From Bilabrum cf. latius (taxonomy: Eukaryota): a stretch of 64,000 bases of DNA. Both the position numbers and the translations under genes were made by a program. Location of the stretch: contig OZ237750.1 in the NCBI GenBank assembly GCA_965178125.1, positions 744,001 to 808,000 on the forward strand. Direction: 5' to 3'. The notes beneath the pieces are model-generated. The model saw only the letters and a list, made by a program, of their open reading frames with translations. It made no database searches and was not told the origin of the DNA. Positions 1 through 64,000 of the stretch are shown piece by piece; the stretch's first letter is position 1, and every line of letters begins with the position of its first letter.

Positions 1-3000
1 TCGCTGATTCATGCCAGCATGGAGAGCCCTCGATATATCTTCTGGGTTCAAAAACACCAGCAGGCTATCCTACTCCCCGAGGCCAGCCGTAGCACCCGCG
101 GCGTGCAGGAGCGCGACTTTGTTCAGGCGGCCGGACAGCAAAGATGACTGTGCAATGGCGGTGGCCTCGTCAAGCGTTCCGCAGCAGGGAATCCATGAAA
201 CGAGCCCGGAGACGGCGGGTGCAAACACTAGATCGTACATCAGCATCGCAAGAAGCATCAGCGGTGCGGTGAAGAGGAACGAGAAACCCTACGATATCCA
301 GAACGTCCACATGACCGAGGAGATCACATCAGGACCATTTCTTGCTCCGAAATCGACAACAATGAAAAGGGCGCCAGCCGCAACCGTAGCGAGCACAAAT
401 AACGTGCAGCCGGCAAAATAACTGAAATGCAAACAGCTTTTCTCCTATCCTTGCAGTGTCCCCAAGACGGCGGCATGCATGGCCTTGTCCTCAAAGATCT
501 CTTCTAGAATCTCGTCCACCTCATCGACACTAGGAGCACCGGCTTCAGTGGCCCTGCGAATGCGTGTTGATCGCACTGCTTGGCTTGCTGAGCTGTCACT
601 AGATGAATAAGCCGGGGGGGAGCCCGCTTCAGACTGGGCCTCGCTCTCAGACCTTGACCGGATCTCGGGGGCGAGTGCTGCCTCCAATTGCAGCCGGGGC
701 ATATTACATACTGCCGCATACTACTGCGTGGATAGTGAACCGAGCCCCGCGCCGCTAACAGCTTTACCCTGGTCTTGGCCTGTCGCTGTGCCGCCACCAA
801 CAGGCGTCTCGCCGGAGGTGCGAGGGAGAGAAGCATCGGTGGTTTCATAGCTGCCGGCATTGCCAAGGTGCTTACCCTCAGTAGCCCCCCCCGACGGGTC
901 ACAGGTCTACCCGTCGGGGGGGGTAGATGTAGCCGGCGCTGCTGCCCCGGAGCTGCTTGGTGCGTCCATTCCTTTGCCAGATTCTGGGGTCGATTTGGAG
1001 TCCCCGGTTTCGGGGCTTGCAGGATCAGATCCTGACCCTGACTTGGCAATTGCGCCACCCTCAGTGGAACTTGTATCGTGGGCTGTCATGCTGCCGCCAC
1101 GTGCTGAACCTTTTCCGAGGTCAGGAAAACTCGCCCTGGTAACTCTGTCACCATCATCGCCATCGCCTGGCACACCTTCGTGGCTTCTATCAGACCCAAA
1201 CACATCAGCAGCAGGAGCCCTGGGACTCTCGATTGCAATGTCTTCTACGGCCGCGATGAGCCCGTCCTCGTCTGAGCTAGATGCAGAACCAGCGGCTGAG
1301 TTGTCGCGACCAGGTTGCCTCGCGCCAAGCCTACTTTTGTTCGGGAATCGATTAGCCAGTTTTGGTGTTGAATGTTCCCAGTCACTTAGTTTAGTCTTTG
1401 TCCTCCGTGCACTTCTTCCAGAGCGGCCAAATGCAGCCTACGGGTCTTCATCTTCGCTGCTTTGGGCGGAAGGCAGCATTATTCCACTTTCTTGCCAAGG
1501 GCCGGACATCCCAGCAGCTCCTCTAGTCACTTGTACCTCAGTAAGCTCCGAGTCAGGATCATCGCCGAGCTCCTCCTGTTCTCTGGCGAGATCCCTGGTG
1601 CCAAGCAGTTCGGGCTGCCTGATGGCGCACACGCACCTCAAGTCGTCCATGAGGCCCCAATCCCAGCAGTCACAAAGCAAGCACGATTCATGCCCCTAGA
1701 CTGCGTCTCTAGCAGGCACACGCGGTGCAATTGGTCTGTCATGTAGCACACTTCGAGGGGCTGGAGCTGGCCCAACTCTGCCAGAACCATGTTCCGAGTG
1801 CAATGGGACTTCATGGCTACTACTGCTCACACCCGTACCTGCAGGACCCAAATTATCAGTACAGGCCTGCATTCGAATAGAAGCAGCTCGAGTATCGCGT
1901 CGAATGTGACAGCATCCGTAAGGCCGTCCGTGCGCAGCAAACTGTTGCATCAAAAACAGATTGCGCTGACTTGGGAGCCGGTTACAGCAGCAAACCAGGC
2001 AAGGGCATGCACGGATGCAGCATTCAGGCGCGTTCGTCCACCCAAGCTCCGATGCAACCACCTCATCCGGAAGACGATCCATGACTGCGGCTGCCGGAGA
2101 CGCGCTTGGCCTCAATTCACCCGAGCAACAGATACCACACGAGGCATACGTGGAGGCTCTTGGGCCATTCACACGCTCTCGTGACTTTGACAGCAGCTAT
2201 ATGATCGTATCTGGGCTCCTGCTTTCCTCTGGTAGTGCCAAGAGCACGTTCATATCTTCCAAGATGGAGGCTTGGTGAACAATCTCTGCTTCCAAATCCC
2301 ACAGACGTTGCTCGCGTGATGCGGGGGAGAGGCACGGCCCAAATAAGTCTGCGCATCTCCATGACCACACGAGCTAGCAACAGCTCAATTCAAAACGAGA
2401 CTGACGAACCAGCTCGTCTCCGTAGTCTCGCAAACTTCGGAGGAAGCGCAGCCGTTGGGAAAACTGGTATTGCCGAATCTGAACGATCGCAAGAAGCAAG
2501 ATGTTGGGCTCATCCTGCTAATCAGGCGCCTCAAGTCGAGTAGCAGAGGTCCTGCTTAGTTCCCGCTGGTTCATTGTCTCCAGAACCTCCTATCTTCTTT
2601 CTCTCTCATGTGCTACAGCCTCAGCGAAACTCTGGGCAGAGCTTTCACTGCTTCCCAACAATACCGAAAGCCTCCTTAATTGCTAATAGTAAGCGTCTGC
2701 CACAGGTGAGTCGGTCCGAATGACCCAGTTTGCGAGTGAGTAGCGGAGCATCACCAACTTGTCGCGCATCTGTCCAACTGTACGACCCATGCGGAGCTCT
2801 GCCACGCGACGGACCTCAAGCTCACGCCATATCGGAAGCAGATTAGATCTCATCCATACGGCGCGTATGAACGAGGTCAAAGCAGTCAATAATGATTCGC
2901 CAAGCAACTGTATGCATGAGGCAGCGAGCGAAAATGCGAGCCGCTCCTACAGTGGGATGGAGCGGAAGTCGTTAATCAATTCCAGCGTCATCAGCCCCTG

Positions 3001-6000
3001 AGACGCGGTACAACAACACAACAAATGCAAGAGACAGCAGCGTAGATACAAGTAGCTATGCAAGCCTGAACGTCCTCCCGTATGCGGGCTGATACATAGT
3101 AAAAACCGCGAGGTACAGGTGATGGAACGGCAGCCGTATGCAGCAGAGGCAGAGCAAGTCTCTAGAGAGCTACCAGGCCAGACACACGGAGCCGGTTGGG
3201 AGATTTGATAGCCCCACAAGCCTATTATCTGCATGGTTTACTCCCTCGATACTGCTCCTCCCAAGAGCAGGGGCGATAGTGCCAGCTGCAGATAGCTGCG
3301 GACTGCCACCACGATGGGGTCCAACAGATGGGGCTGGCGCCGGAGTTGAACCACTGCAGCTGTCTGCAGCAAGGCATGTATTCTACTGCTCAACGAAGCG
3401 CGCTACTTTTCCTAGGTATTGCATCGAATCTGTGAAGAACTTCACTGAAGCTACCGGCTATTTGGTGCTCGAATCACTCCTAGAAGAAGGAGCCAGTGGC
3501 CCAGCAGGAGTGGACGTCCGGTGTTCCACATTTCCTGCGCCACCAGCTGATACTAAACCACCTGGTGACCTAGCACCTGACGCGGTGACATCGTTGGCTG
3601 GCTGCGGCGCTTGCGAGCCGCCTTCCTACGCTGGGGTTACCTCACGGCCGAGGCATGTGCAGCAGTTCTCGAGTCCGCTGCACCAGTTGTCGAGGTAGGC
3701 CACGCAGCAGCCACCAGGGTCCTTTGCAGGTGACTATTGCTATGAAAACATTCGAACACCTGGAATCTTTGACTCGAGGTGCGGATACAATGTTGCAAGG
3801 TAATGCTGCTGCGAGTCTTGCACTTGTGGTCTACTCCCCCCACGGGACGAGCCAGCAAGTCCAGGTTCGCGCACTAAAGGACTACCAGAGTTCTCGCGAT
3901 GCAAGCCAGTATGCTCACAATTTGATGGCAATTGGGCAGTGCCTATAGTCCCAATAGCGCGTTCTGACCCATTGGAACGGGCGCTAGACATACCTGCTGG
4001 CACGCTACGTGACGAGTTGTGCCCCCCAGCGATAGCTTGCATTGCCACTGTTGCGATACGCACCGCTTCATCAATCCCGTCATCAGAATTCTGTCTCAAC
4101 GCTTCACTCAGCAGCTCATTGCTACCCTCTAGGCGGATGAGGTCGTGAACCACTGCCACTTCTGGGTCCCGAACCAAGCGACGAATGAAAAGCACGCGGT
4201 CACGACGGTCTAAGCAAAGCACCACGGCACCCAGCAAGCCAAACAAGAGCAGCAGGGAGCCCAGGGTGACTATAAGGTAGGAGCTCTGTGATTGGTTGGC
4301 TAGTGCCGGTTGGAGAGTTTCCAACCTAAAAGTCTGTGTCTCCGTTCTTGCTAGCAATTCCAAGCGACTCGAGAAATCGGTCAGATGTGAGCACCTGCAC
4401 ACGATACCGCCACTCAATACGGATACGGCGAGACAGCCCTCTCCTGACCAGCCCCCCTTCTCTTCGTCCCAGAAAACGCAGGCAGCTGACTCCACCTCAA
4501 CGGTGCTGCTGAACTCCTACCGGCTCTGATTGGCACTGAGTGGCACACCACACTGATCCGGAAAGCTTAGTGAAACGTTGTGTTTTACAGATGGGAGCTC
4601 CGGGATGACATCACCGTCGATAGCCAGCACTTGCTTGCTAAGAATTGCATCTGACGCAAGCTAGCGGCGCTTGGCACCAGTACTAGCTGCGGCTGGCAGC
4701 AGTAAGCAAACCTGCAGACCAACGTCTGCGATATCAATAGGGGAGCCGTCGCTTGCAGCAAGAAGATTCACAGATACTGTCGGCCCGCTTCTTCCACCTA
4801 AGGAAACAACTTCAGTCGTACGCGATACGTTCCCAGTAATCGTCAGCACACCTTCTGCATCTCGTGGAGCGCTTGCTAAGGTGCTGATTTGTAAGAGTGC
4901 CCCGTCCAAGTCTTCATCAACAATGGTCTGCACATCCGGCAGTCCAATAGCATCTTCTATGCCTGCAGTAGCTACTGAATGTGGGCTGGTATCGACGCCC
5001 CACTTTGTTGCTACCGCATCCACTCCTTCGCGTAGCAGTTGCACGAGCAGCTGCCTTCTCATACTAGGCAACGCAAAGTCTGCCAGGTTAGCTGCTGTGA
5101 GACTGACAAGCGCCATCCCGTACCCAAGTACATCAGCATTTCTAGTCCTCTCCAGTAATCCGGCGGTTCCATTGCATAACTACCCTACTAAGTCCAACAT
5201 ATCACTGTTCCCACCGGGATTGGTGGGCGCACGTGACAGGACGCCCAAGACCGGTCTACCGCCAACCTGTGACTCTATACCAAGAAGGTCCAGCCTACCT
5301 GCAGCGAGCGAGAGACCATCTCCGATGCCCTCGATAACACGAGGTAGCTCACCGGGGACTGCGTCAGCTAGCATCGATCGACCGAGCAACTGCGAGAAAT
5401 GAGAGATTTCGGTGGATGTCCCGTTATCAATTGCACCGAGCTTATCGGACAACTTGGCGGCTTGAGCAATCGACGAGAGTGCAAGTAGCACACTAGCAGC
5501 AGTCTCAGCACCCACTGCAGGAACGTCAGCCGGCTCAACTCTCCGAGAAAGTAGCGTTCCGGTGGATGCCAGTGCGCCTCGGAGCAGCACATCGCTGGCG
5601 CTAGCTACGGATGAATCGAGCACCGCCACGACTGCCTAAGATGAAACCTGCAAGTTCACATCAGATGGTGTTGACTAGGACGTTGTATCAGCCAATACCT
5701 TGACAACGTTCTCCCGCGCACTAATGAGAAGGTCAGAGGCAGTATTGTCGGGACCATCTACTGGCTCGTACGCCACCAACGTCTCAGAGGCTGTTCTCGT
5801 GCGTAGCAAAGCCTTCTCGGGATTGAAGACTGCAGCACTGAGTCTAGCAGTCTGTAGCTGAGTCTCAACAACCCGGACTACGCCTCCTATATCAGCTGCT
5901 TCTTGTACAGTGAAGGTGGGTCTCACTATCACATGCGCAATGGCCACACCACGACTGCGCATCTAGTCAGTAGCAACGACGATAACGGTCATATTTACAA

Positions 6001-9000
6001 GACTCTGCTAGGCCTGCCGCGAACGGGGCATTGTGAATCTGACCAAACTTGCCGTGCTCTGCGCCACAGCAGGACGCACTGAGGGAAGCCGCAGGAGATC
6101 GTCGATGGATTTGCCAGGACCTGCTACATCTACGCTCGTTGTCGGCACAGATAGCGTCTCAGAGCTGGCGTAGTACGAGAATTGCAACGGAAAATCCAGA
6201 GCAGAATCCGTCCATCCACTAGTCCGTACCTGCACCTCATCCAGCAAAGCTCTAGGCTAGCCACCGAGAGCATTCAACCCAGAATCCGCAAGCTCAACCG
6301 TAACCCGCCCTCCGGTCGGCGGTGAGTTCACCACGATGCGCGCAGAGGCTTTGGAGCTAGCAAGTGATCCAGAAACACTATCAGTGGAGGATTGAAGTGA
6401 AACAGAGGCTGTAAACTCGTACAACTTTCCCGGTTGCAACACGCCGCCGGCCAGCACCAGCCGTCGCTGGGTTGTTGAAGTAAGGACAGCATTTGGTGCA
6501 TCTGGTGCGGAAGAGTTGGCTGGAACCGACAGGCCAGAGCCAGCAATTGCGGGCCCAGCCGTTTGCATCCAACGAAGTGACAACCCAAACTCGGTGAGGG
6601 GCTACTCTGCATCGCCAGGTCGCACACCACTGACTACAGCTTCGAGAACGAGTCTTCTGGACGATGAGACCACTACTGCTAGACGGTTTGAGTCATAGCG
6701 TCTTGGCGAGATATTTGAGGTTGAAATCTCGATGCTGGGAAGACTTTGCTCTACGATCGATACAGATGATTCTGTGTATCCTGTCTAAACGGCAGAAGAA
6801 GGCCCACCAGCTGACTCGTTCACGCCCAAGGCCTGCAAGCCGGATGTAATTGTTGCTCCTATGACGGCAGTGTACCCCACGGCAGATCGCGCAAATGACT
6901 CACTCAGCGTCGCCCTGTCAAATGAGACCGATAACTCTGAACTGCAGTTGCGCTCCTGTGGAGCCTCGACTGATTCTGTCTCTCCAAGCAGCAACACAGC
7001 TGTGCAGTTCCATCGAACTGTGACTGCAGTCTCGAAATCCGCTGAATCATACCCGATGTCCACGATGCCCGTGTCAGCATCACTAGGTGCAAAATCAGGG
7101 TCGATGGTTTCCGAAAGCCGCACCTCGATGGCGCGATCGCCCGGTACAGACCTGCCTCCACCTTCGAGCTCCACCTGTAGCTCCTGGCGGCCAACCTCGA
7201 TCACGTGCAGCTACCAAGCATCCGTGATGAACGAGGCAGGCAACTCGATGATCGAACCGATAGTGGAGTTAAAACTCGCGACAAAGGCCCTTACAGCGAA
7301 TGCATACGTGTGAAGAGCACGAAGGGCGGAACCCGGCACATTAATGACAGGGTTGCCACGCTTGACAGAGCTTACTGCCTTGAGACCGCTGAATCCCGCA
7401 GTAGCAGTCCACCATGCCGCTGAACTCAGATTATGATGCAGCTTGTCCACATTTGAGATGTTCCCTAGAATGGTGTTGTCCTCCTTGAGTGCCAGGCGTC
7501 CGAGCTAGACCTCAGTGAAAAAGTCTGCGACATGGGCGTCTTCGGGCAAATCTCTCGGTCTGAAAGCTGGCAGCAATCTACGCGAAGCTTCGTCAGCAGA
7601 CAGAAGAGACGAGGGTGTTCCAAGCAGTTGTCTCCATTCTACCGCTACAACCAACTGGGTACCCAGTACCACCGTTGGCAAGACGCACAGGTCTACTTGG
7701 GATCCAATCGGAAACGGTGCCCCTCTGAAACGGAGCTGTGCACTAGTAAGGGCGTCCTGAAAATGCACTGTGGGGAGGGACACCACGTCAATATCTGCTC
7801 CTGCAAACTGCCACGGGTATTGCATGGCGCGGACATTCCAGTCGCTCTGCGAAATCGAAGCCACGCCTGGCTCAAAGACTCGAGCCGCCACCCGCACGGT
7901 AGCTGCGTAGCCTGGTACGATCCTAGCTAGACGAATTGCAATGAAAGGACCATCACCACCTTGTTCGACAATAGCAGACGATGCACCGTCAGAGTTCATT
8001 TCCATCTAAATCTACGCGATATTCGACTGAGTTTCTGCTACTCTAAACAGCAAAGTGTTCGCCTGCTGCACTGCAGTTCCAAGGCTAACGGAGGCCGCGG
8101 GATCCGTGGGCGGCGTCGTGATCTCAATGCTCCACTGTGTCTAATACGACTGTACCACCCCGCCACCTCTAGACCCACTTGCATTGAATCTTGCTGCATC
8201 CCCGCAAAGTGTAAATAAGCCCTACGATGCAGTCACAGCAGCTGTCAACGGCTGCGGTTGCGGAGACACTACCGGAGTTACTGAAGGAGTCGCAGTCGGT
8301 GAAGGCGAAGCCGAAATAGAAGGTGGAGGCGTGAATGTACTGGGAGCCACCCGTACATCAACAATGTACACTGCGCCAGCAGCATCGAGCTATCCTGAGA
8401 AGCTTGTTCTAGTCGCTCCGAAGACAAAGCGACCGAAAGCCCTCGAGGGTGGGCGCGACACGAATGCCATGGAATTCGCATCGAAAACGTCGTAGTCTGG
8501 TTCCTAATCAGAGTCAAGCATTGCTACCAGACTATTGGTTCTATGCGATATCTCCAATACGGAAATCACTGTCCTGTTGTGTGGGTCTATTTCCAGCAAG
8601 AATACACCGCCTCGGATCTCATCGGCAGCCACTCGACGAGCCGACACAGCAATGACCGGGCGGCCGGAGCCGTAAAAGTCTCCAAGTGGCACTATCGCTC
8701 TTGCAAACTCGGTAGGCACCTATCCTGCAGGCCCTGGGTCTGGAAAAAGCGAAGATGGAAATCCACCGAGTCCATCGCCAATCACCACAGAGCTGCCGTC
8801 GACGTGCACTTGCCCGGAAGCGCCCTCTATTGAGCCACTTGAAGGCTCCGTAACATTTAGCACGGTCAGCACAAGTATCACGTCCTCTGTTGTTCCAACA
8901 TACAGATCGTGGGCAGTGGGTGGCGCTCCAAGATATGACACCGGCTGAGCAGTGAGGCCCGCTAGTGTTGTGGTCGATTCAATGCCACCGTACTGCATGA

Positions 9001-21012: not shown

Positions 21013-21148
21013 GGAAGATAAGGGTAGCGAATGGTTGGCCCACTTGCACCTTGCTAGCCGTTCCGTGCATTGTAGCGAGCTGTTTTGATTTGCCAACAAA
21101 CTCAACGGCAACAGCGGAATAGGTTTCAGAGCTTCTCCTCCCGCTAGA
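21013..21148. promoter_or_regulatory. Probable bidirectional promoter between divergent CFAP73 and EF-hand genes
   Basis: Only 136 bp between head-to-head predicted ATGs; lower GC than flanking CDS. Confidence 0.45.
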
Positions 21149-38442: not shown

Positions 38443-38754
38443 TGAGGCGCGGGTGGTCGTGCTTGTGCCGTCTCGCGTCGTTCTCTCCGTTTCTGCATGT
38501 GGCTGGCGTGGTGTTTGGAATTGCCATTCGGACTGCAGCTACCCTTGAGCGCGGCAGCTTTGCCCAGGCAGTGCATTTGTGATCGAATCACTTGCTGGGC
38601 TGGAGCCCTGCCGCGTACTTGGGGTGTCGCTGGCTCGAGTTGCTTGACAGATTTCACTGCCATTGGTTCTCCTTCTCAAGTGGAACAGTCAGGCATCTTG
38701 CTAGTAATTTTCCAGCGGATCTTGAAGAAAATCCATCATAGATCCTCCTCTAAA

Positions 38755-50526: not shown

Positions 50527-50720
50527 TATTCCTTGCAAATGAGACGTTCAGATTCCGTGGCGCCGCGCAAGCGAGACGCTGCCAAAGCGGAACCTACATT
50601 CTGAAGGCCGTTGTACAGAATCGTCGACGGGCTTTGCCGCCAGTCCAGTCCAGCATATTCGATACTCAGTCCTACCACTTAATTAAACATATTGTATCGT
50701 ACCATACTTGATCCATAGAT

Positions 50721-53700: not shown

Positions 53701-55432
53701 ATGGAAGAGGGCACTTGCCGTTGCGGATGAATTCGATCAGATCCATCGACGGCTAGCCTTCCACAAGTACGGACACCACCTGGCGGAGGCTGGTGAGATG
53801 CTGGATGCATGCCGTGCTTTTGAAGAGGCGGGCACGGCGCTGCAGGAGGTGCCGCGCGTGCTCTCCGCCAAGTCCATGTTCCCTCAGCTGAAGGAGTACG
53901 TGGACGGCCGGAGGGAAGAGGCACCCGAGCTATCCAAGTGGATGGGTCAGTACGCCGAGCATTCCGGCGATCCTGGTGCTGCCCTGGAGTACTATCGAGC
54001 TGCGAACGACGTCGCCTCGGCGGTCCGAGTGATGTGCGGGCAGGGCGAAGAGAGGATGGCCGTGGATGCGGTCATGTCATCTGGGGACAAGGGCGCGGCC
54101 ATGATCTTAGCGCAGCAGTATGAGTCGCACGGCGACACTGCCAACGCCATCAAGTTCTTCGAGCTGTCCGGCAGGTACGGGCAAGCGGTTCGGCTGGCAG
54201 TGCAGTCTGGCATGGACAGAGAGGTGCTCACGCTTGCGCTCAAAGCAGACAAGGCCGCGATGATCGAGGCGGCTGGGTACTTCGAGAGGAAGGGGGAGCT
54301 TGGCAAGGCCGTACAGCTGCTGCACAGAGGGGGCGAGCTGCCCCGCGCCCTCGACCTCTGCTTCTCCGCGAGGCTGTTCGATGAGCTGAGGAGCATCGCA
54401 GACGACCTCGGGCGGGGGGCCCCCAAGGACACGCTTCGAAAGGCGGCCGATTTCTTCATGTCGAACAACCAGTACGATAAGGCCGTTGGCATGCTGGTCA
54501 ACTCGGGCCAGGTGGACGAGGCCATCGATCTCTGCATGCAGCACCGCGTGGAGATTTCGGACGAGCAGGCCGACGAGATGACGCTGTCGCCGGACGCCCC
54601 CGAGGGCGAGGACCCAGAGGCGTACACCGCCCGCCGCAAGGAGCTCCTCCTCAAGCTCGCGAGGGCGCTCAGGAAGCAGGGCTCCCTGAAGCTGGCCACC
54701 AAGAAGTACGCGCAGGCAGGCGACCGCATCAAGGCCATGAAGTGCCTGCTCAAGAGCGGAGAGACGGAGAGGATCGTGTTCTTCGCCAACGTGAGCCGCT
54801 CGCCTGAGATCTACGTGCTGGCCGCCAACTACCTGCAGAGCCTCGACTGGAAGAACACTCCCGACCTGATGAAGCAGATCATCACGTTCTACCGCAAGGC
54901 CAGGGCCAACGAACAGCTGAGCAGTTTCTTTGAGGCATGCGCGGATGTGGAGATCGACGACTACCGCAACTACGAGAAGGCAAACAAGGCCATGGGGGAA
55001 GCTGTCAAGTACGCCAAAAAGATCAAGACGGCCGAGAAAGAGGTGCGGATGCAGCAGCTGGAAGGGAGGCAGTCCACCATATCGCGTTTTGTGCAGGCCA
55101 GGGCACTCAAGGACACCGATCCGAAGCAGATGGAGCAGATGTGCCTGCAGCTCACGCAGCAGAGGGACGCAGAGAGCGCCATCCGACTGGGAGACGTCTT
55201 CTCCTTGCTCATCGAGTACTATTTCCGGTCCCAGCAGCCCCAGGAGTGCCTCAGGATGGTGGAAAACATGAAGAAGAGGGGCATCAACGTGCGGATGTAC
55301 CTCGAGCAGAGCGACATCGATGCAATCCACCAAGCAGCTGGGATTCCTGTGGGGTCTGCCAGTGGCGGTGGGGTGGACGACGAGGAGGAGGAAGTCGTGG
55401 ATGATGAGGACGACATCCCAGACGAAGACTGA
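50721..55432 (+). CDS. IFT140: Intraflagellar transport protein 140 (WD40 + TPR); introns 50953-51041 and 51164-51325; single in-frame TAG at 53558
   Basis: WD40 N-terminus (WHP..AVGWSDG, WSPDG); LRDFDGME..TRKALLDFSYHL..G.LD.AYRAV..VWRNMA..CV..RLDVA.LCLANMGHVRGLRAL*KAR..AMLAIQLG; ATKKYAQAGD..KAMKCLLKSG, YVLAANYLQSLDW, EIDDYRNYEKA; TGA stop. Confidence 0.97.
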
Positions 55433-55729: not shown

Positions 55730-58021
55730 TCAATTTGGAGTTATTTTAATGCCTTTGCTCATGGACAGAGTCCTGCTGCGCCTGCGCATCGCTCGCTCAG
55801 ACGCGATGCGTTGCAACGGGGGAGGCCTGGCGCGGTTGGTCCGCGCCGCCCGTGGCGCATTCGAGCCCATACTGCTCTCTGACTCCAGCCTCTGCCGGTT
55901 CTGACGCAATGGGCTCGCGCGCATGCCGTCTGTCAGGTTCAGGTCCATCATGCCGCCGGTGGCCCCTCTAGCGGACCGGGGAGAGGGCGTCACATTGGGC
56001 CCCTGCGACCCCAAGCTCGAGTCGGAGAGGATGCGCTGCCGCTGGCCCCTTTGGGCTCCCCCAATGGCGTTGGATCCATACCCTACCTCAGGTTCACCAG
56101 CTACAACACCGTTTCGGACCGTTGTGCGCCCCGAGCCGCCCGTTCGAATCGACCGAGTGGCAGACCGCGGGCTGCTCCCAGACCTGTCTTGGTCGTTCCC
56201 CGAGTAGGACATGTCGCGCTCCTCGTCTGGCTGATCCTCCTCGCCCTAGTCACCGCCTGTCATCCCGCTGCCTTCGTACTCTTCCTCTATGTGAGGAATG
56301 GCGGGACCAGCCTGGGCCTAGTACAGCGGCGACAGGATGCGCTTCGCCTGCGGCTTGTGGGCTCGCATGGTCGTCGGCAGGTGACCCTTCTCGTCCCGCT
56401 GGCGCACCGCCTCCGGGTCTCCGTAGTGCAGTCCCATGTCCAAGTCGCCTTCTCTGCACCGCGCCTCCTCGTCGCCAATTCGCTCCAGTTCCTCCACGAG
56501 CGCAGGGCTGGCGGGCGTGGTCGTAGTATCGTCCTCTTCGTCAAGACTAGTACCCTGCCTGCCTCCTGGCTCCATCGACTCGTCATCAGAGGGCAGGCAG
56601 CAGGGGCACAGCACGATCTCATTGGTCGCGGATAGCACCATGAGCCTGTACACTACATACACAATCAAAGCAAAGCACAGTCCGCACACTGCTGCGATCA
56701 GGATACCGCCAGAGCTGGAAGTATCCAGCCCTGCCCCGTCCAGAGCCAAGATCGCGATGAGTGCCATGGGCGCCCACACCAAGAGCACCCAGCCCATTAG
56801 CGAGCAGCACAACTGCCCACACGAACTGATACCGGTCCACCTGCTGACTATGTCCGAGCATGCGTTGTCCAGTCTCTCGCCCTCGACGTACGACCTCTGC
56901 GCATCCACGTCTCGTTCGTCTTGCATCAGAGCGATCTCGCTGGGCAGAAGTGGCCTGAAATCCCCTCGGGCAGGCACCACGAGCCACGGCTCCTTGCACA
57001 GGGAACAAGGGAGCACCTGGAACAAAGTGACACCCTCTTTGTGCAGGCGCCGAAGCATGCCAACGTACGCACTGTCAGAGTCCAGTAGAGGCAGCTTCTT
57101 GTACTGCCATCCCCTGAGGGCAACGTCAGTGGGGCCCTCGCCTCCACGAAGGGCAGCACGGGCAGCGATAACCTCGGCGATGGAGCCCGCGCGCTGCCTC
57201 GTCTCTTGGGGCAGGTGCCCCGTGCTGCTGGAACGCTGCGCGTCGGCATCGGTCGGGTCTCGCGGCGGCAATCGGGGCGCAGACGCCGAGGCGCTCATCC
57301 CATTGCGTTTTGCAGCAAGCCGTTCCTGTATCTATAGCACTCGGAGGGAAGGTGCTGGAAACCTCGCGACCAGCGTCCATTTATCCCTGTTCTGTCTTTG
57401 CCACTCTGATTCGCACTCATGGTGCCTCGTCGCTGCGCAGCAGGTGCGGCGCGCGACTCGGCCCCATTCTGAGCAGATGTAGCACTTTCCCAAGTGAATT
57501 TGACTCACTTCGCCCCCAAGCCTGTCCAAATGCTTTCGGAGTGCCCTCAGGGTGAGGCCAGACGACGACTAGGAGTGCCGGACATCGGATGGGTCTGTCA
57601 AAGTACCATGAGGGGCTTCTCCGCTGCCAGAAGCACCCCTGGACGATTCAAAAAAGGACTGTCTCTTTGCGAGTCGCTCCCACACGACAGGAACAGACTG
57701 AAGCCCGAGCATAGGGGCCAGACTCTATGTCATCTCTTCATGTCCAGCAGCTGTGAACGTCAAGGAGCGGCGAGAATGCCTTTCCTACTGCAGCTACTGA
57801 CGGCTGGACGCGGATGCATTGTGTTCACCACCATGGCTGGCCTGCGGCTTGCTCCTTCCAGCTTTGAAGGTTGATGCCAGCGGATTCGAGGTACTCGGTA
57901 CGACTGGCGCGCCTCCGAATGCGTGACCTACGCCTCCAGATCGAGCCGCTGCCAGGCGAGCAAGCTCCTTGGCTCGTTCTGTAGAAATACGCTGCTGAAT
58001 TGGAACGCCATTGCCACTCAT
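55730..58021 (-). CDS. MARCH-like membrane protein with split RING-CH-like zinc finger and two TM helices, paralog A (~763 aa)
   Basis: ORFs 57794, 57332, 56318 and 55730 are in one frame, joined via TAG; CYIC..TCCAATRHHECESEW ... PCSLCKEPW, then two hydrophobic helices; TGA 55730-55732. Confidence 0.7.
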
Positions 58022-58253
58022 AGTATGCTGCGTACGAAGAGCTCGGGCAACAGAAACACAGACAAGTACACTGTGTGGTGGCGATGCTTGCCAGGCACAG
58101 GTCGCTCTTGAGCACAGTTACTCGCACAACTTTAGTCTGTTCCACTCTCCGTCTTCATCGTACTCCAATAACCGATATAAATAGTCCAGCGGACCAAAAT
58201 CACTGTGCCGCCGACATGTCTCGGGTCGCAATGGCTGGTCGCAACTTCTGGAT

Positions 58254-60167
58254 TCAAGACTCTGTGGCATCGCCGGCCGATCGAATGCGAGCTCTTCCAG
58301 CGCGCTACACCCGAAGCACAGCTGGTGGAGGCATAGGATCTCTATCTAGTGCCCCAGGCCTATGCACAGGCCGAGGGGGGCGCAACTATCGCGCTGCCTC
58401 CGTGGCTTCAGCTGTCCGCCCTGCAGGCTCACCGCGGACAGAACCCATCGCCACGGTATTACGCAATGGCGAGCCGGCGGCAACTACCGCTGCGCCCAGG
58501 GACGATCCCGCCGTAGCACGTGGTCCAGGTGTCAAGCTTGACGATGGCGGGAGCTGCAGCGCCGAGCCACATTCGTGCCCCCCCTGGGGAGCCCCCGCCG
58601 CCGCAGACGGCGGGAGCTGGGAGGCAGCGAGCGCAGCTCGCGTGCCGGGACTCATCGAGCCGCTGGCTAGAGCTTGCTTGATACCGGCCGCTCCAAGTTG
58701 AGGGGTCGAGAACTGGTGGAGATGCTCCTTGCCTGCTCCTCCTCGGCCCCCAGTGCCTCCAGCCCCCATGCCCCCGCCTCTGCCCTTGGCCGGCTTCAGC
58801 TCAGTCGCATGGGCCACCTCCCTGGCTTCGTCTAGGGGGTCCTTGGCTGCGTCTGGAGCTCGGATGCGCAGGCCCTCCGCCTCGGTATCTGTCGTGTCCT
58901 CCCACTCACTGGTGACGGGGGCATCACCGCCCTATCCAGAGCCGCCCTCGTGGGCTCGCTCTGCACCACCGCGCGCCTGGCCTGAGCTTGCATCCCGCGT
59001 GGGTAACCCGGCCGCCATTTCTCCGGCGGGTGCCCCGCTTGCACCGGCGTGTGCACTGCCTTGCCGCTCGTGCGCGTAGTTGTCCAGCCCCCGCCCCCCC
59101 CTCACCCGTCCACCTGCCATCCTCTCCAGCTCTGCAACGTACCTGGCACGTCTCCTCGAAGACTCGCCCCTCTCGATCGAGGCGGCGTCGTCTTCCCCTT
59201 GGGCCATGCTGGAGGTACTGCCACAACAGCTGCTGCAACGGCAGCACTTGCACCGAACCTCGCCGCAGTAGACCACATTCACCCGATATGCGGCAAACAG
59301 CAGCACCCCGCCCGCAGCGCCCACACCACCAGCGATCCCGAACAACTCGGCACTTCCCATTGTGTCAGACGCGCTAGAGGCCAGTATGGCCAGTGAAAGG
59401 AGGCCTACTGGAAGGCACAGAAATAGGACCACGGCCAGCAGTGTTCCACACACCCCAGCAGTCCCCTGCGTACCGAGACACGCCTCCATCGCTTTGCAAC
59501 AACAAGGTAACTGATCCGTATCACCGCCATCCGCTCCTCCATCTTGCTCCTCCCCATGCACGCTGTCATTGGGTCTCACGTCCGTGATCGGCACGTACGT
59601 CTCAAGAGCTTCGTCTTCTCTCTAGTCCTCCAAAGCCTCCAGCTCGCTGGGCAGGAGCGGCCTGAAGTCCCCTCGGGCAGGCACCACGAGCCACGGCTCC
59701 TTGCACAGGGAACAAGGGAGCACCTGGAAGAGCGCTACTTGTTTCTCGTAGAGCGCGCGCACCATGCGCACGAAGCTCGCGTCTGTGCGGGATGCAGGCA
59801 CCTTCATGTACTCCCAGCCGCGAGCGGCAGCGAGAAACTCCTCGTCCTCCGCCTCGTCTAGTTCCACTTCCGATTTGCGGCGCTTCCTGGTCGAATCATA
59901 GCTGCTGTGCTCTTCGGCTGGATGGTTCACGTCCTTGGTTTTTCTTGCAATTGCACGAGCAGCCAGCACCACGTCAAGCGACTCGCTTCTCTGCCTCGTG
60001 CATGCTAGTGGCGGAGAGCTGCCAGCTGCCGCGCCATTGGCACTTGAATCCCCGCTACCTCTGCTTCGACCCGTTCTGTCCCGCGCACTGGAGTGCTGCT
60101 CCATGGAGATTGTCGAGCCCATGTCCATGCCACTGGCAGCCGGCCCTGCTCCTGCTGTTGCTGTTGT

Positions 60168-60198
<31 letters not shown>

Positions 60199-60896
60199 CT
60201 ATTGCGGTACTCTTGCAGACGCTTCTATGCCTCGGCTGCCGCGTGAACCCTTGCGACCAGGTTCCACTTGTCGGGGTTCTGTCTTTGCCACTCGCACTCG
60301 CACTCGAAGTGCCGAGTGGCGGAGCAGCACGTGCGGCGAGCGACGCGTCCCCACTCCCCGCACACGTAGCACTTGCCGGTGTGCAGCCTCTTCACTTCTG
60401 ACCCAAGCCGATCGAGGTGCCTACGCAGCGCAGCAATCGTGAGAAGGTTGGTCTGTGGCGGTAAGCCGACCGCCGTGGGGTTGCCAGCCGCCTGCACTGA
60501 CTCTGGAGCGTCGGCTGGGTTGGGCTCCTCCAGTGGATCTTCTTGCTCGTTTCCAAGGGAAACACTAGCAACCTAGGATGCACCCTATGCTGCATTTAAA
60601 AAACCAGACGATGGCGAGCGGGCAAACCGCTCCCACAGAACCGGAGTGTTGGCAAGGCCTTCGAATCGCTATCTAGGCACTTCGTGCTCGGCAAGGCCCG
60701 CAGACCGCATCTTGCTGCCAATATCAGCCGAATCTACATTAAGTTTGCTTCCGCGTGCGACATATTCTCTTGATTCCGCTACGCTTTGTTCATCTTTGCC
60801 AGAGTGCATTGGATTGTTTGTGTAGGGCAACGACGTAGCAGCGGCGGCGCCGTCCCCGCTGGCAGGGCCACTGGGAGCGGGGATTTTCCTCTGCAT
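58254..60896 (-). CDS. MARCH-like membrane protein with split RING-CH-like zinc finger and two TM helices, paralog B (~880 aa)
   Basis: ORFs 60669, 60225, 59622, 58932 and 58386 are in one frame, joined via TAG; CYVC..TCCSATRHFECECEW ... PCSLCKEPW; two TM helices; TGA 58254-58256. Confidence 0.7.
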
Positions 60897-61377
60897 CCAA
60901 TACCTCAATGCACAAGACTGCCGTGGAGGGCAGGCAAAGGGCCAGTTTCAGGCTGCCAATAGTGCGGTACGTGAAATCCTGTAGTTGCAGTTGTCGACAC
61001 CACTGGCAGCAGGCGGTCGTCAAATCAATATACCTTGTAAATCCCCCGTCGTACTTTGCAAAAGTGCTCAAACCCCGTGTCACTGTTTCGGCCGGGAACT
61101 GGAGTTGGGTAGGGAATGCCACGCACGCCAAAGCAAGTTGAAAGCTGGTCGCAACCGCTGACCGGCGTGGGCCCCGGGGCTTGCGTATCTCTGGTCGCAT
61201 GTTCGCCCTTAGTGCTACGTAGGCAATCAGTCTGTGGCGCAGCGCAGCAAAATATCAATTGCCTAGGTTGTGAGCAGCATGGACCGGTGTCTTTGGTGAG
61301 ATGGTGCGAGTAATGACCGTTCTTTGGCCATTGAGCAGTTGAGCACAGCTGTAGTATAATGATACATGTTGACCGAT

Positions 61378-64000
61378 TCAACGCTTCAGAATGAGAATGG
61401 CGACACACGCAGCTACACTTGCCCCCACTGCAACCCCCACTATCACCACACGGTCCCACAATAGCAGCACAGGGGGCATCCAGGCCAGCGCGCTATCTGG
61501 ATCATCCAGGCACGCGCCAACAGGGCACTGGCCCGTGGTGCACAAAGCGGCCCACACGAGTGCACTACTAACGATGGCGACATCATACAGCCTGAAAACA
61601 AGACTCGCCCATCCTCTCTAGGCCTTGCCAGCGGTCCTCGAGCCCCGCTCGGGAGCATGCCTAGTCCACCGCGATGTGCCCTGTTTTCGGCTAGTGTGCA
61701 TGGCCGCCGGAGGGGCTACCACCGTTCTGCCGCCGCCACCGCTGCTGTTATCGTACATCAGCAGCCGGTCCGTAAGGCTTGCTTCGCCCGGAAAAACGTG
61801 GTACTCCCGTCCTCTGCAGCAGCACCACTCACCAGCTTTGGCTGCATCGAAGGCCTCCATGCTCCCCTCGAGTGCATCCCACTGCAGCACAGCCAGGGCC
61901 GCACCCAGGCCGTGGATGACCCGCGGGTACGCGTTGTTGAACATGCGTGGCGGGAACATGGGCATGCCTGCGATCTGGTATTCGTTCCGAGCCTGGGTCG
62001 ATGGCTCCAGAGCACCGCCTCCGGCCGGTTTTGCCGGCTCCCGCGCGCCACTACGACCACCAGGGCGGGAGCTGCGGCCGTCTGAGTCTGACGCCACCTC
62101 GTCGCTGTCGGCCTCTGGATTGAGCACCACACCGCTGTTTAGTGTGCTGCAGCTTGGTCTAGGAGGCTATAACGAAAACGATGAGTTGCCGCCACCTGGC
62201 TGCAGCATGCACCCAACGGAGCTGTCGCGGTCGACATGCTGCGCTCTGGAGGCCAACTCGAAGGAGTTGCGACGAGTGCGGCTGGCAACCCTGGAGGCGA
62301 GACTAGGGCTCGGTGTGCCACCCTGATAGATCTAGTCGGGTGAGTTCGAGCTGGCCAAACTGCAGGACTCCGATGCATGCGCTTGAGCACGGCCGATGGT
62401 GGGCTGCCTCGGAAACCCCACTGCGCTCCATGAAGTGATGTTGCCTCCCTCTGTTGACGTGTTGGCTGCAGAGATGGGTTCCACTTGAGCTCCGCTCTGA
62501 GAATCGGAGCTCCATCGATCCATATGCCTGTGCCCACGGCTTTGTGCTGCGTCTTTTTCGCCCGGCAGCGGGTCAGGTATACAAGGTGATCCTACTGCCG
62601 ATTGCGTTTGGTCGCCGAGATCCTCTGGTGGTGTCGACGAGTCAAACACAGGGTGTGCCCTCCCATCGCCTTCCGTGCTATCTTCCACCGGAACGAACAC
62701 CCGGCCGCCGGGACGTTGTGGGCGTGCCCTTCCACCAGCTCGCTGTGCAGCAGGGGCAGGCCTACCAAACATAGCGATGGAAGGGGTTGCGGGCACGCGG
62801 AGAGGAAATGGCGATACTGGAGCTGAAGGACGCTGCTCAAAGTTGAGGCTCCCGTCGCTTTCGTCCAGGACAAAGTGACGCCCGAGGCTGCCCTCGCCGC
62901 TTGACGATTCCAAGGCGTGCTATACGCCGCCGTGGCGAAGCCTTGCCGGGCTAGCGGGGCCATACAGCACCGGTGGCATAGTACTGCTGGAGCTGGAGCT
63001 GTCCACAGACAGTAAGTTTGCCAGCATTCGGTCCGGCCCTGGCGTGTCCAGCTGGTTTACTGCCCCGCGAGTATTGTGTTGCGGTTCAGGTGGACACTGT
63101 GGTTGACTAGTGGCTGCATTTTTGTCACCGGCTAACTCGGGCCCCTGCTGCTGCTGCTGCTGCTGCTGCTAGTAGGCCTGCGCTACAGCAGCAGACGGAA
63201 ACTCCTGGTCCAGGCAGAGGCCGCTGTACCGGCTTCTTGGTCCCGACGCCAGGCTGTTGAATTGACCGCTCCTCGCATGCTTACGACCTCTTGTTGAGCC
63301 CGTGCGGTCCTCTGCAGAGTCGCTACGGAGCTGTGAGGGATGCCGCAGACTGGACTGCGATTTGAGCAAAGCGCCCGCCCCAGCTCTGTATGGCGCCTTC
63401 TGCTACAGTCTATTCTCAGCCTGACTTTGCCTCTAGAAGGAAGCGCCCCTCGGCGAATATGTCAATCGTGGACCGTCCCCCGGAGAACCAATAGCAGCGA
63501 GCTCGCCCAGCTTGCTCTACTTGCTCGAGAACAGAATGGGGTACATGCAACATAGCAGCACCAACCCTCGGGCGATGCCCCCAGCTGCGAGCCCTAAGCA
63601 CAGGTAAAGTGCAGGCCACTGGAGCTTCGCAACCCGAAAGGCAAAAGGAAGCGCCAAAAGCACGACTTGCATGCAAATCAATGCCCAAGCAGTAGATAGC
63701 GGTACCGCATACTACGCAGACATGCTCACATGCAACCATGCTGCGCCGAGGACGGCAGCTGAAATGGTTGCAAGCGCGGGGTAGAAGGTTAGAGAGAATG
63801 TGGTAGGGTGCAGTTGGCGGCTCTAGCATCCGCCCCGCCGAGATGCAGCCAAGGCCGTCTCAACCGCAGGTATCTCCGGAAGTGAAATGCAAACATCGAT
63901 GGATGAGGGCTCTGCAGCAACGAGCCAAGCGCCTGCGAGTCCAGCAGCTGTGCTGCCTCGGATCCGGCGTGCTATTCTCTGCAGGACGCTTCCAGGAGTC
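61378..64000 (-). CDS. Hypothetical membrane protein, 5'-partial: several TM helices, polyQ, long disordered region, C-terminal TM
   Basis: One frame open from 64000 to TGA 61378-61380 apart from TAGs; hydrophobic segments ~63540-63800 and VIVGVAVGASVAACVAILILKR at the end. Confidence 0.7.
63145..63171 (-). repeat. In-frame TAG(CAG)8 polyglutamine tract
   Basis: Minus strand reads tac TAG cag cag cag cag cag cag cag cag ggg. Confidence 0.95.

What the first reader, a model, noticed from the sequence alone, without database searches (positions are those of the whole stretch)
1..64000. Non-standard nuclear genetic code: TAG is a sense codon (most likely Gln); TAA/TGA remain stops
Seen: 16 of 18 genes, including conserved ones (IFT140, CFAP73, GH20, GH59, S28, asparaginase), carry in-frame TAGs across which the protein continues coherently. 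The giant receptor has about 40 TAGs and no TAA/TGA over ~9.6 kb of one frame. No gene needs to end at TAG: 15 end in TGA, 2 apparently in TAA. Established: UAG and UAA are usually reassigned together in nuclear codes (ciliates, diplomonads, some ulvophytes); UAG-only reassignment is rare (e.g. UAG=Gln in Iotanema spirale, UAG=Leu in a rhizarian, some phyllopharyngean ciliates; equivalent to NCBI table 15). Inference: this GC-rich, intron-bearing flagellate looks like none of these and may be an independent origin, requiring a tRNA-Gln(CUA) and an eRF1 that ignores UAG but reads UAA/UGA.
Basis: partly seen in the sequence, partly recalled or inferred. Interest (0 to 1): 0.97.

Follow-up and report, generated by a model that had tools for sequence, protein, structure and literature searches.

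The report
TAG codon read as glutamine
This stretch of a GC-rich protist nuclear genome is only readable if the usual stop codon TAG encodes an amino acid, most likely glutamine, while TAA and TGA still stop; this is a rare kind of genetic-code change, seen here in what looks like a lineage where it has not been reported.

Summary
With TAG read as sense, frames closed only by TAA/TGA reach 3286, 1758, 1683, 1373 and 1372 codons, against a maximum of 748 under the standard code. Pfam models run straight across in-frame TAGs in peptidase S28, GH20, GH59, IFT140, SRCR and an FG-GAP/REJ/GPS receptor. In 12,770 supported codons there are 92 TAG, 0 TAA and 0 TGA.

The TAGs are in the RNA. Spliced contigs (GT..AG introns removed) from two other studies cover 5 TAGs in S28, GH59, asparaginase and IFT140 with no differing letter.

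Glutamine is the best reading. Two TAGs sit in a column that is Q in 293 of 614 and 280 of 592 homologous repeats. In 54-80% identical homologues from one other contig, 4 of 7 window TAGs face Q, and two of those proteins end exactly where the window has TAG. Pfam scores disfavour Leu, Trp, Gly and Tyr.

The IFT140 tree places the organism among stramenopiles, outside oomycetes and ochrophytes. Four literature searches found no such case. The tRNA, eRF1, genome-wide stop usage and peptides could not be tested.

The parts
2972..12832 (-). Giant receptor-like gene (FG-GAP repeats, REJ, GPS): one frame of 3286 codons with 42 in-frame TAG and no TAA/TGA. It probably continues by an intron into the frame 1-3237(-).
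   Evidence: (Pfam FG-GAP, FG-GAP_3, REJ 1878-2228, GPS 2784-2821)
1..3237 (-). Frame with 13 TAG that overlaps the end of the giant frame and runs off the window. It is the likely downstream exon(s) of the same gene.
   Evidence: The frame relation was read from the sequence; the intron is inferred and not seen in RNA.
11627..11629 (-). TAG at giant residue 402, in the repeat motif H-x-K-I-S. The family column is Q in 293 of 614 aligned repeat copies.
11423..11425 (-). TAG at giant residue 470, in the same motif. The column is Q in 280 of 592 copies. The third copy of the motif, at residue 323, uses CAG.
10685..10687 (-). TAG at giant residue 716. It faces Q both in the internal duplicate and in homologue P0308.
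10391..10393 (-). TAG at giant residue 814. It faces Q in P0308, in a conserved context.
7211..7213 (-). TAG at giant residue 1874. It faces Q in the 80% identical protein P0334.
5180..5182 (-). TAG at giant residue 2551. It faces Q in the 76% identical protein P0335.
6602..6604 (-). TAG at giant residue 2077. The called protein P0334 of the other contig ends exactly one residue before this position.
4661..4663 (-). TAG at giant residue 2724. The called protein P0335 ends exactly one residue before this position.
13913..18964 (+). Gene with nine SRCR domains plus a membrane and low-complexity tail. 14 in-frame TAG; ends in TGA.
19079..20527 (-). Coiled-coil frame with a weak likeness to CFAP73. 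1 TAG.
   Evidence: E 0.004
21089..25210 (+). Frame of an EF-hand protein. 10 TAG; ends in TGA.
28487..30133 (-). GH20 beta-hexosaminidase. All 4 TAG lie inside Pfam models.
36916..38442 (+). Peptidase S28. TAG at 37120-37122 and 38110-38112. It ends in TGA, and a second TGA follows directly.
38721..41687 (+). GH59 galactocerebrosidase-like gene with an intron at about 38985-39082. TAG at 40509-40511 and 41370-41372. The conserved C-terminal strand lies after both TAGs. Ends in TGA.
42426..48509 (+). Long gene with at least 3 introns in its 5' part (about 42333-42425, 42786-42877, 43145-43274), a 45-bp tandem repeat and a coiled-coil tail. The frame 43233-48509 has 20 TAG and ends in TGA.
48685..50547 (-). 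Asparaginase. 1 TAG at 50167-50169 (read as CTA on the + strand). Ends in TAA.
50721..55432 (+). IFT140. ATG at 50721; introns at about 50952-51040 and 51163-51324, both seen spliced in two runs. A single in-frame TAG at 53558-53560. Ends in TGA.
55730..58117 (-). First of a tandem pair of paralogous membrane-protein genes. 7 TAG; ends in TGA.
58254..60947 (-). Second of the paralogous pair. 8 TAG; ends in TGA.
61378..63999 (-). Frame of an unknown membrane protein. 10 TAG; ends in TGA; runs off the window at its 5' end.

Best explanation
The window is nuclear DNA of a GC-rich, intron-bearing flagellated protist, probably a stramenopile outside oomycetes and ochrophytes. Its ribosomes read UAG as an ordinary sense codon, most likely glutamine, while UAA and UGA terminate. 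This is the pattern of NCBI translation table 15.

On this reading UAG is a minor Gln codon: TAG:CAA:CAG = 92:110:384 in supported genes. It is rare in strongly biased genes such as IFT140, S28 and GH59, and common in weakly biased ones, tracking CAA.

Shown here:
- In-frame TAGs lie within conserved domains.
- They are retained in spliced transcripts.
- They face Gln in homologues.
- TAA and TGA are absent in frame.
- TAG is absent at frame ends.

Inferred from what is established for other reassigned codes, and not tested here:
- A tRNA with anticodon CUA charged by GlnRS.
- An eRF1 that no longer recognises UAG but still recognises UAA and UGA.
For: TAG is sense:
- ORF lengths.
- Pfam S28 matches 1-433 of 434 across a TAG. 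The IFT140 TPR model covers residues 698-1192 across the TAG at residue 749. GH20, SRCR, FG-GAP, REJ and GPS models are also present.
- The conserved GH59 C-terminus lies after both of its TAGs.
- Frame counts are 92 TAG, 0 TAA and 0 TGA in 12,770 codons, against about 116, 31 and 228 per off-frame.

Not an error, editing or splicing:
- Contigs of 4 runs from 4 studies show 0 differing letters over the genes laid.
- Runs X5 and X8 carry six GT..AG joints, so they are cDNA-like, and they still hold 5 of 5 covered TAGs (S28 x2, GH59 x1, asparaginase x1, IFT140 x1).
- The spliced IFT140 reads through from its ATG with one TAG.

Gln:
- The motif H-Q-K-I-S is encoded once with CAG and twice with TAG.
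- That column is Q in 293 of 614 and 280 of 592 aligned copies from the 150 best of 25,143 family members.
- Log-odds over 5 sites for all 20 residues: Q 8.2, H 7.6, Y 7.2, R 2.6, all others negative.
- Homologues from one other contig face window TAGs with Q, Q, L, R, Q, K, Q, which is 4 of 7 Q. Q makes up 4.06% of residues in these frames. My hand calculation of the binomial probability gives about 8e-5.
- Summed Pfam bits (PF00530 + PF00728 + PF14845 + PF05577): Q 735.0, K 734.8, E 734.8, R 733.0, A 730.8, S 730.7, Y 726.9, G 723.4, L 721.5, W 713.8.
- H, T, N, D and P score 2.6-6.7 bits below Q on three of those families.

Shared code: P0334 and P0335 end exactly before window TAGs 2077 and 2724.

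TAA and TGA are stops: 11 TGA and 3 TAA frame ends and no TAG end among 14 closed frames. If TAA were Gln at the CAA:CAG ratio of 0.29, about 26 would be expected in frame. None is seen (expectation by hand).
Against: The residue call rests on few sites.
- Pfam scores alone cannot separate Q, K and E (all within 0.2 bits). On SRCR alone, E, K and R score above Q.
- His and Tyr come close to Q in the five-site family profile, because site 236 lies in an H/W/Y column: H 72, W 44 and Y 39 of 194.
- In the internal duplicate only 2 of 11 TAG sites face Q. The others face A, S, R, G, A, G, R, T and A.
- The IFT140 site faces R in 107 of 120 homologues and Q in 5.
- One paralogue site faces E.
- Q is only 1.33-fold enriched next to TAG: 29 seen against 21.8 expected.
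- C, F, I, M and V were not scored against Pfam.

Other limits:
- No tRNA is present in the window, and no eRF1.
- Only 14 frame ends were seen, so a rare terminating use of TAG is not excluded.
- Zero in-frame TAA/TGA is partly by construction, because the frames were delimited by those codons.
- The 19-kb contig that carries the homologues may be a paralogue in the same genome rather than a relative. Its stop codons could not be read.
Confidence: 0.85

Rival explanations
1. TAG is a sense codon but stands for a residue other than Gln: Arg, Glu, Lys, His, or less likely Tyr.
For: - Pfam sums put K and E within 0.2 bits of Q.
- His (7.6) and Tyr (7.2) are close to Q (8.2) in the five-site profile.
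- The IFT140 column is mainly R.
- Facing residues include R, K, E and L.
Against: - The two H-x-K-I-S sites lie in a column that is 47-48% Q, where E scores -1.0 to -1.3 bits and K 0.4 to 0.5 bits against 4.6 for Q.
- 4 of 7 sites face Q in the 54-80% identical homologues, and none faces H, E or Y.
- Y is 8 bits and H 2.6 bits below Q in Pfam sums.
- From general knowledge: CAG is one base from UAG, and Gln is the commonest natural reassignment.
Confidence: 0.08
2. The code is ambiguous: TAG is read as sense inside genes but also terminates some genes depending on context, as in Condylostoma or the karyorelicts.
For: Only 14 closed frame ends could be examined, and true 3' ends of mRNAs were not mapped.
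Against: - 0 of 14 closed frames ends in TAG.
- TAGs are spread evenly along genes: 31, 22, 17 and 22 per quarter.
- S28 ends at TGA at the conserved C-terminus, and GH59 ends at TGA just after its conserved C-terminal strand.
Confidence: 0.05
3. Both TAG and TAA are reassigned (the UAR=Gln code, table 6), and TAA is merely rare because the genome is GC-rich.
For: TAA is the rarest triplet of the three in every frame (44-72 per frame). UAA and UAG usually change together (PMC5304391, abstract start seen in the listing; PMC11687900, passages).
Against: - 0 TAA against 92 TAG in 12,770 supported codons, while CAA:CAG is 110:384.
- Off-frames of the same DNA hold about 31 TAA each.
- Asparaginase and the frame 34667-36778 end at TAA and are followed by AT-rich sequence.
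- Freeing TAA lengthens no frame notably.
Confidence: 0.03
4. The TAGs are not translated: they are sequencing or assembly errors, RNA-edited sites, tiny introns, or marks of pseudogenes.
For: None found.
Against: - Sequence is identical in contigs of 4 runs from 4 studies.
- Spliced contigs keep 5 of 5 covered TAGs and show no joint at any of them.
- The defect would have to hit TAG alone, 92 times, and never TAA or TGA.
- Two homologous proteins from another contig stop at the same two positions.
Confidence: 0.01

Closest known systems
UAG=Gln-only nuclear codes (NCBI table 15 pattern): Iotanema spirale (Fornicata), Protocruzia tuzeti, and the phyllopharyngean ciliates Hartmannula sinica and Trochilia petrani
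   Same: UAG is sense and best read as Gln, while UAA and UGA are kept as stops. The list of cases comes from PMC11687900, passages read.
   Different: The host lineage differs. IFT140 groups with stramenopiles, not with ciliates or fornicates. The genome is GC-rich (0.55-0.63), has spliceosomal introns, and prefers TGA as its stop. The tRNA and eRF1 were not seen here.
UAR=Gln codes (table 6): many ciliates, hexamitid diplomonads, Streblomastix, ulvophyte green algae, Amoeboaphelidium protococcarum
   Same: A stop codon is captured for Gln, presumably through a mutated tRNA-Gln.
   Different: TAA is not sense here: 0 of 12,770 codons, and 2-3 frame ends use it.
UAG reassigned to other residues with UAA kept as a stop: Leu in an uncultured rhizarian and some phyllopharyngeans, Ser in Scotinosphaera
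   Same: The meanings of UAG and UAA are uncoupled.
   Different: Leu scores 13.5 bits and Ser 4.3 bits below Gln in summed Pfam scores, and 18 and 11 bits below in the family profile.
Ambiguous stop/sense codes (Condylostoma, Parduczia, karyorelicts, Blastocrithidia UAA)
   Same: In-frame 'stop' codons are translated.
   Different: No frame end uses TAG, and TAA and TGA never occur in frame.

Membership tests
Nuclear code of the table 15 pattern (UAG=Gln; UAA, UGA stop) | In-frame UAG inside conserved protein-coding genes, with the protein continuing across it | tested here: met
   Pfam models are continuous across TAG in S28, IFT140, GH20, SRCR, FG-GAP and REJ. The GH59 C-terminus lies after both its TAGs. 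92 TAG in 12,770 codons.
Nuclear code of the table 15 pattern (UAG=Gln; UAA, UGA stop) | The UAGs are present in mature mRNA, neither edited nor spliced out | tested here: met
   Spliced contigs of runs X5 and X8 hold 5 of 5 covered TAGs with 0 differing letters. These are contigs rather than raw reads, so rare editing is not excluded.
Nuclear code of the table 15 pattern (UAG=Gln; UAA, UGA stop) | UAG positions correspond to Gln in homologues | tested here: met
   The column is Q in 293 of 614 and 280 of 592 copies at two sites. 4 of 7 sites face Q in 54-80% identical homologues. Q is top of 20 residues in the profile log-odds. About 21 distinct sites were alignable, and many of them lie in variable columns.
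Nuclear code of the table 15 pattern (UAG=Gln; UAA, UGA stop) | UAA still terminates and is not found in frame | tested here: met
   0 in-frame TAA, and 2-3 frames end in TAA. This is window scale only.
Nuclear code of the table 15 pattern (UAG=Gln; UAA, UGA stop) | UGA still terminates | tested here: met
   11 of 14 closed frames end in TGA. S28 ends at TGA at the conserved C-terminus and GH59 at TGA just after its conserved C-terminal strand. 0 in-frame TGA.
Nuclear code of the table 15 pattern (UAG=Gln; UAA, UGA stop) | UAG is not used as a terminator | tested here: inconclusive
   0 of 14 closed frame ends is TAG. The sample is too small to exclude rare use.
Nuclear code of the table 15 pattern (UAG=Gln; UAA, UGA stop) | A tRNA with anticodon CUA of Gln ancestry | not testable with these tools
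   The window has no tRNA (ARAGORN; Rfam). No genome is held.
Nuclear code of the table 15 pattern (UAG=Gln; UAA, UGA stop) | eRF1 with altered stop-codon recognition | not testable with these tools
   There is no eRF1 gene in the window and no genome is held.
UAR=Gln code (table 6) | UAA is also used in frame as Gln | tested here: not met
   0 TAA against 92 TAG in frame.
UAG=Leu code (rhizarian type) | UAG positions correspond to Leu | tested here: not met
   Leu scores 13.5 bits below Gln in Pfam sums and -10.0 against +8.2 in the profile.
Ambiguous stop/sense codes | The same codon both terminates genes and is read inside them | tested here: not met
   No frame ends in TAG, and no TAA or TGA occurs in frame. 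The sample is small.
Stramenopiles (host lineage) | Marker proteins group with stramenopiles | tested here: inconclusive
   In the IFT140 FastTree, the window sits in a clade of 35 of 53 rows (support 100). All 13 named rows in that clade are stramenopiles: Platysulcus, Cantina, Hondaea, Triparma, two chrysophytes, an Epipyxis and six oomycetes (the chrysophyte H1 label comes from a source name only). The window lies outside the oomycete + ochrophyte clade (96). This is one gene on a long branch (0.94), and no named alveolate or rhizarian row was in the set.

The most novel reading that the evidence does not exclude
An independent origin of the UAG-to-Gln-only nuclear code in a deep-branching, GC-rich stramenopile flagellate. 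It would be the first variant nuclear code in stramenopiles. It would be shared by at least one related genome, because homologous proteins break at the same TAG positions. It would have arisen in a genome whose base composition runs against the AT-pressure route usually invoked for stop-codon capture.
Probability: 0.55. Interest if true: 0.88.

Novelty: new member of a known kind. Interest (0 to 1): 0.8.

Why it matters
Nuclear code changes that split the meanings of UAG and UAA are very few. PMC11687900 (passages read) lists a rhizarian, Iotanema, Scotinosphaera, Protocruzia tuzeti, some phyllopharyngean ciliates and one oligohymenophorean.

A further case in a different supergroup-level lineage, with a GC-rich and intron-bearing genome, would do three things:
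- Add an independent data point on how eRF1 can lose UAG recognition while keeping UAA.
- Test whether GC-rich genomes, in which TGA is the main stop, predispose to freeing UAG.
- Offer a possibly culturable flagellate for experiments.

There is also a practical consequence. Any annotation of this organism under the standard code will shatter most genes. In the public protein collection, the homologues of the giant gene appear as fragments of 237-533 residues.

Tried and rejected
- Whole genome: none is held. Genome-wide codon inference and searches for the tRNA and eRF1 were therefore impossible.
- ARAGORN and Rfam found no RNA gene in the window.
- The tandem 45-bp repeat in the long gene uses CAG in every copy, so it gave no TAG/CAG comparison.
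- All-against-all BLASTP of the window's frames gave mostly low-complexity pairings. I did not use them.
- The SRCR repeat alignment showed TAGs mostly in variable columns.
- The word-indexed search with GH20 returned only distant, mainly bacterial hits (31 at E<=1e-10) and was not used for residue inference.
- The neighbour-composition test was weak (Q 1.33-fold).
- The locally built IFT140 profile at the TAG column was flat (K 0.139, A 0.110, E 0.097, R 0.076, Q 0.063). The state mapping may be off, so I rely on the raw column counts instead.
- The search for related loci on metagenome contigs failed three times because the machine gave no answer. The DNA of relatives, and the identity of their stop codons, could not be read.
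- Sequencing runs: no listed holder is on record as RNA. I infer that X5 and X8 are RNA-derived only from their spliced joints. Parts of the stretch without cover in X6 and X8 are not interpreted.
- Literature: four searches found no report of a UAG reassignment in a stramenopile. The library lacks most subscription journals, and supplements were closed, so this is not proof of absence.
- Not done: Pfam scoring for C, F, I, M and V; S28 and FG-GAP scoring for H, N, D, T and P; structure prediction, complex prediction and atlas searches, which were not needed.

Full report
**What is in the window.** The 64 kb are GC-rich: 0.55-0.57 in the first 16 kb and 0.59-0.63 after that. Genes are densely packed on both strands.

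Under the standard code the longest stop-to-stop frame is 748 codons. If only TAA and TGA count as stops, the longest frames are 3286, 1758, 1683, 1373 and 1372 codons. Freeing TAA instead gives nothing comparable (longest 848).

Pfam identifies these frames:

| Gene | In-frame TAG | Note |
|---|---|---|
| Peptidase S28 | 2 | model positions 1-433 of 434 |
| GH20 hexosaminidase | 4 | |
| GH59 galactocerebrosidase-like enzyme with ricin lectin domain | 2 | |
| Asparaginase | 1 | TAG lies N-terminal of the domains |
| IFT140 | 1 | inside the TPR model, which matches residues 698-1192 without a break |
| Protein with nine SRCR domains | 14 | |
| EF-hand protein | 10 | |
| FG-GAP / REJ / GPS receptor, 3286 codons | 42 | |
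| Methyltransferase | 0 | |

A likeness to CFAP73 is weak (E 0.004).

In the mouse GALC alignment, the conserved C-terminal strand of GH59 lies downstream of both of its TAGs. The polypeptide must therefore continue through them.

**Is it more than chance?** I took twelve frames whose coding status is supported by Pfam models, by paralogy between two of them, or by RNA-type contigs. They total 12,770 codons.
- In frame: 92 TAG, 0 TAA, 0 TGA.
- In each of the two off-frames of the same DNA: about 116 TAG, 31 TAA, 228 TGA.

TAG is thus tolerated in frame almost as freely as out of frame, while the other two are excluded. The zeros are partly by construction, since the frames were delimited by TAA and TGA. 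But frames of this length that match full-length protein models would not exist otherwise.

TAGs are spread evenly along genes, with 31, 22, 17 and 22 per quarter.

**Are the TAGs real, and are they in the RNA?** I laid contigs of four public runs, from four studies, on 36001-56000.
- All four agree with the window over the genes. The only differing letters lie at 41810-41830, in an intergenic repeat.
- Two runs, X5 and X8, carry joints that skip 89-162 bases bounded by GT..AG. The joints are at about 38985-39082, 42333-42425, 42786-42877, 43145-43274, 50952-51040 and 51163-51324. These contigs are therefore derived from spliced RNA, although no run is on record as RNA.
- These contigs cover 5 TAG codons with no differing letter and no joint at any of them: both in S28, the first in GH59, the one in asparaginase and the one in IFT140.
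- Joining the IFT140 exons at the observed joints gives one open frame from an ATG at 50721 to the TGA at 55430-55432, with a single TAG.

Sequencing error, editing to CAG and removal as introns are thereby excluded, as far as contigs can show.

**Which residue?** Four lines of evidence were available.

(a) Internal repeats. In the FG-GAP module of the giant gene the motif H-Q-K-I-S occurs three times, once with CAG and twice with TAG.

(b) Family profile. A full HMMER search of residues 181-1380 of the giant protein against 1.84 billion representatives found 25,143 relatives. I aligned the best 150 locally.
- The two TAGs of the motif fall in a column that is Q in 293 of 614 and 280 of 592 aligned repeat copies.
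- Three other sites fall in columns that do not favour Q: H 72, W 44 and Y 39 of 194; G 129, N 60 and S 57 of 470; G 21 of 60.
- Summed log-odds over these five sites, for all 20 residues, are Q 8.2, H 7.6, Y 7.2 and R 2.6, with all others negative.

(c) Close homologues. Three called proteins from one 19,113-base contig of another assembly match the giant protein at 54%, 80% and 76% identity.
- Window TAGs inside these alignments face Q, Q, L, R, Q, K and Q. That is 4 of 7 Q, several in otherwise invariant contexts.
- Gln makes up 4.06% of residues in these frames. By my own hand calculation the binomial probability is about 8e-5.
- The 80% and 76% identical proteins end exactly one residue before window TAGs 2077 and 2724. 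With a TAG density of 42 in 3286, the chance of both coincidences is about 1.6e-4 (hand calculation).
- That genome, or gene copy, therefore has a standard-code stop at the same two places. This is what shared sense TAGs would look like after gene calling under the standard code.

(d) Pfam scores as a likelihood. I translated the same DNA with TAG set to each of ten residues and compared whole-protein bit scores for SRCR, GH20 (two models) and S28.

| Residue | Q | K | E | R | A | S | Y | G | L | W |
|---|---|---|---|---|---|---|---|---|---|---|
| Summed bits | 735.0 | 734.8 | 734.8 | 733.0 | 730.8 | 730.7 | 726.9 | 723.4 | 721.5 | 713.8 |

FG-GAP (PF01839) gave Q 98.3 as the top score. On three of the models, H, T, N, D and P fall 2.6-6.7 bits below Q.

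Pfam alone therefore rules against Leu, Trp, Gly and Tyr but cannot separate Gln, Lys and Glu. Lines (a) to (c) do that.

**Evidence that does not point to Gln.**
- In the roughly 30% identical internal duplication of the giant protein, 11 TAG sites face A, S, Q, R, Q, G, A, G, R, T and A.
- The IFT140 site faces R in 107, Q in 5, K in 5, H in 2 and S in 1 of 120 homologues. Many of these are redundant mammals. The Q rows include oomycetes.
- One site in the tandem paralogue pair faces E.
- SRCR alone ranks E, K and R above Q by up to 1.9 bits.
- Neighbouring residues are only weakly enriched in Q.

Taken together I put Gln at roughly 0.9, given that TAG is sense.

**TAA and TGA.**
- Of the 15 large frames, 11 end in TGA, 3 in TAA, none in TAG, and one runs off the window.
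- The TAA at the end of the giant frame is probably not a true end. Another frame, 1-3237, continues through it and reads like protein, so I infer an intron there.
- Asparaginase and the frame 34667-36778 end in TAA and are followed by AT-rich sequence.
- S28 ends at TGA at the position where the human DPP2 alignment ends, and a second TGA follows.
- If TAA were Gln with the A-ending to G-ending ratio of the standard Gln codons (CAA:CAG = 110:384), about 26 in-frame TAA would be expected beside 92 TAG. There are none (expectation by hand).

The code therefore matches the pattern of NCBI table 15, not table 6.

**Codon usage.** TAG counts per gene follow CAA counts closely, for example 42 and 37, 14 and 14, 20 and 21, 2 and 2, 1 and 1. 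Both are rare in genes with strong CAG preference, such as IFT140 at 64 CAG, 7 CAA and 1 TAG. This fits TAG as a non-preferred synonymous codon, but it does not identify the residue.

**Mechanism.** Shown: ribosomes must pass 92 or more TAGs in these genes, the mRNAs keep them, and Gln fits best. Inferred from what is established for other reassigned nuclear codes: a tRNA with anticodon CUA derived from tRNA-Gln, and an eRF1 that has lost UAG recognition but kept UAA and UGA. Neither gene is in the window and no genome is held.

**Who is it?** IFT140 has no close relative in the protein collection; the best hit is 48% identical.

In a FastTree of 53 rows the window's protein lies in a clade of 35 rows (support 100). 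All 13 named members of that clade are stramenopiles: Platysulcus, Cantina, Hondaea, Triparma, Epipyxis, a chrysophyte and six oomycetes. The named rows outside the clade are Goniomonas, Prasinoderma and five animals.

The window's protein is excluded from the oomycete-plus-ochrophyte clade (support 96). It sits with three unnamed environmental sequences.

The branch is long (0.94), the tree rests on one gene, and no named alveolate or rhizarian was in the set. 'Stramenopile outside Gyrista' is therefore a working placement only.

**Comparison with what is known.** Passages of PMC11687900 list the nuclear cases in which UAG and UAA differ:

| UAG meaning | Lineage |
|---|---|
| Leu | an uncultured rhizarian and some phyllopharyngeans |
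| Gln | Iotanema spirale, Protocruzia tuzeti and two phyllopharyngean lineages |
| Ser | Scotinosphaera |
| Glu (with UAA = Lys) | one oligohymenophorean |

The present code works like the UAG=Gln group. It passes every membership feature that could be tested in a window. The tRNA, eRF1 and peptide evidence could not be tested.

Four full-text searches returned no report of such a code in stramenopiles. The library is incomplete and supplements were closed.

**Verdict.** The kind of code is known. Its occurrence in this lineage appears to be new, and it is probably an independent origin.

Noticed in passing
window 36001-56000: Runs filed under four different coded organism names (A, B, C, D; four studies) hold this DNA or its spliced transcripts with no differing letter. 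Small shares also occur in runs labelled 'algae metagenome' and 'protist metagenome'. The organism may be a frequent companion or contaminant of other cultures, or it may be filed under several names.
   Followed up: partly
window 8693-12292 (-), giant protein residues about 230-540: The FG-GAP module with the H-Q-K-I-S motif is unusually well conserved. The full search gave 25,143 hits at E<=1e-3, and the best 150 are 37-63% identical. They include a Planctomycetaceae protein and very long proteins (up to 6156 residues) from unnamed environmental records.
   Followed up: partly
window 2972-3237 (-): The giant frame stops at a TAA while a second frame overlaps it and goes on for 1079 codons to the edge of the window. 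An unseen intron probably joins them, which would make the gene longer than 4300 codons.
   Followed up: no
window 45952-46234 (+): A perfect-looking 45-bp tandem repeat (6.3 copies, 99% matches) encodes a 15-residue unit inside the long gene 42426-48509. Every Gln in it is CAG.
   Followed up: yes
window 33627-33917: Arrays of 33-bp tandem repeats (5.7 copies at 98% and further copies at 78-97%) lie in a region with no identified gene.
   Followed up: no
window 55730-60947 (-): Two neighbouring genes are paralogues (33% identity over 537 columns). They share Cys-rich and transmembrane blocks, and no Pfam family matches them.
   Followed up: partly
window 38440-38445 (+): S28 ends with two TGA codons in tandem.
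   Followed up: no
window 1-16000 versus the rest: The first 16 kb (the giant gene and the start of the SRCR gene) are less GC-rich (0.55-0.57 against 0.59-0.63). These genes also have the highest share of TAG and CAA among presumed Gln codons.
   Followed up: no
window 41777-42034: A short intergenic stretch shows alternative letters, a 6-base gap, and many loose ends and joints in several runs. It is probably a dispersed repeat.
   Followed up: no
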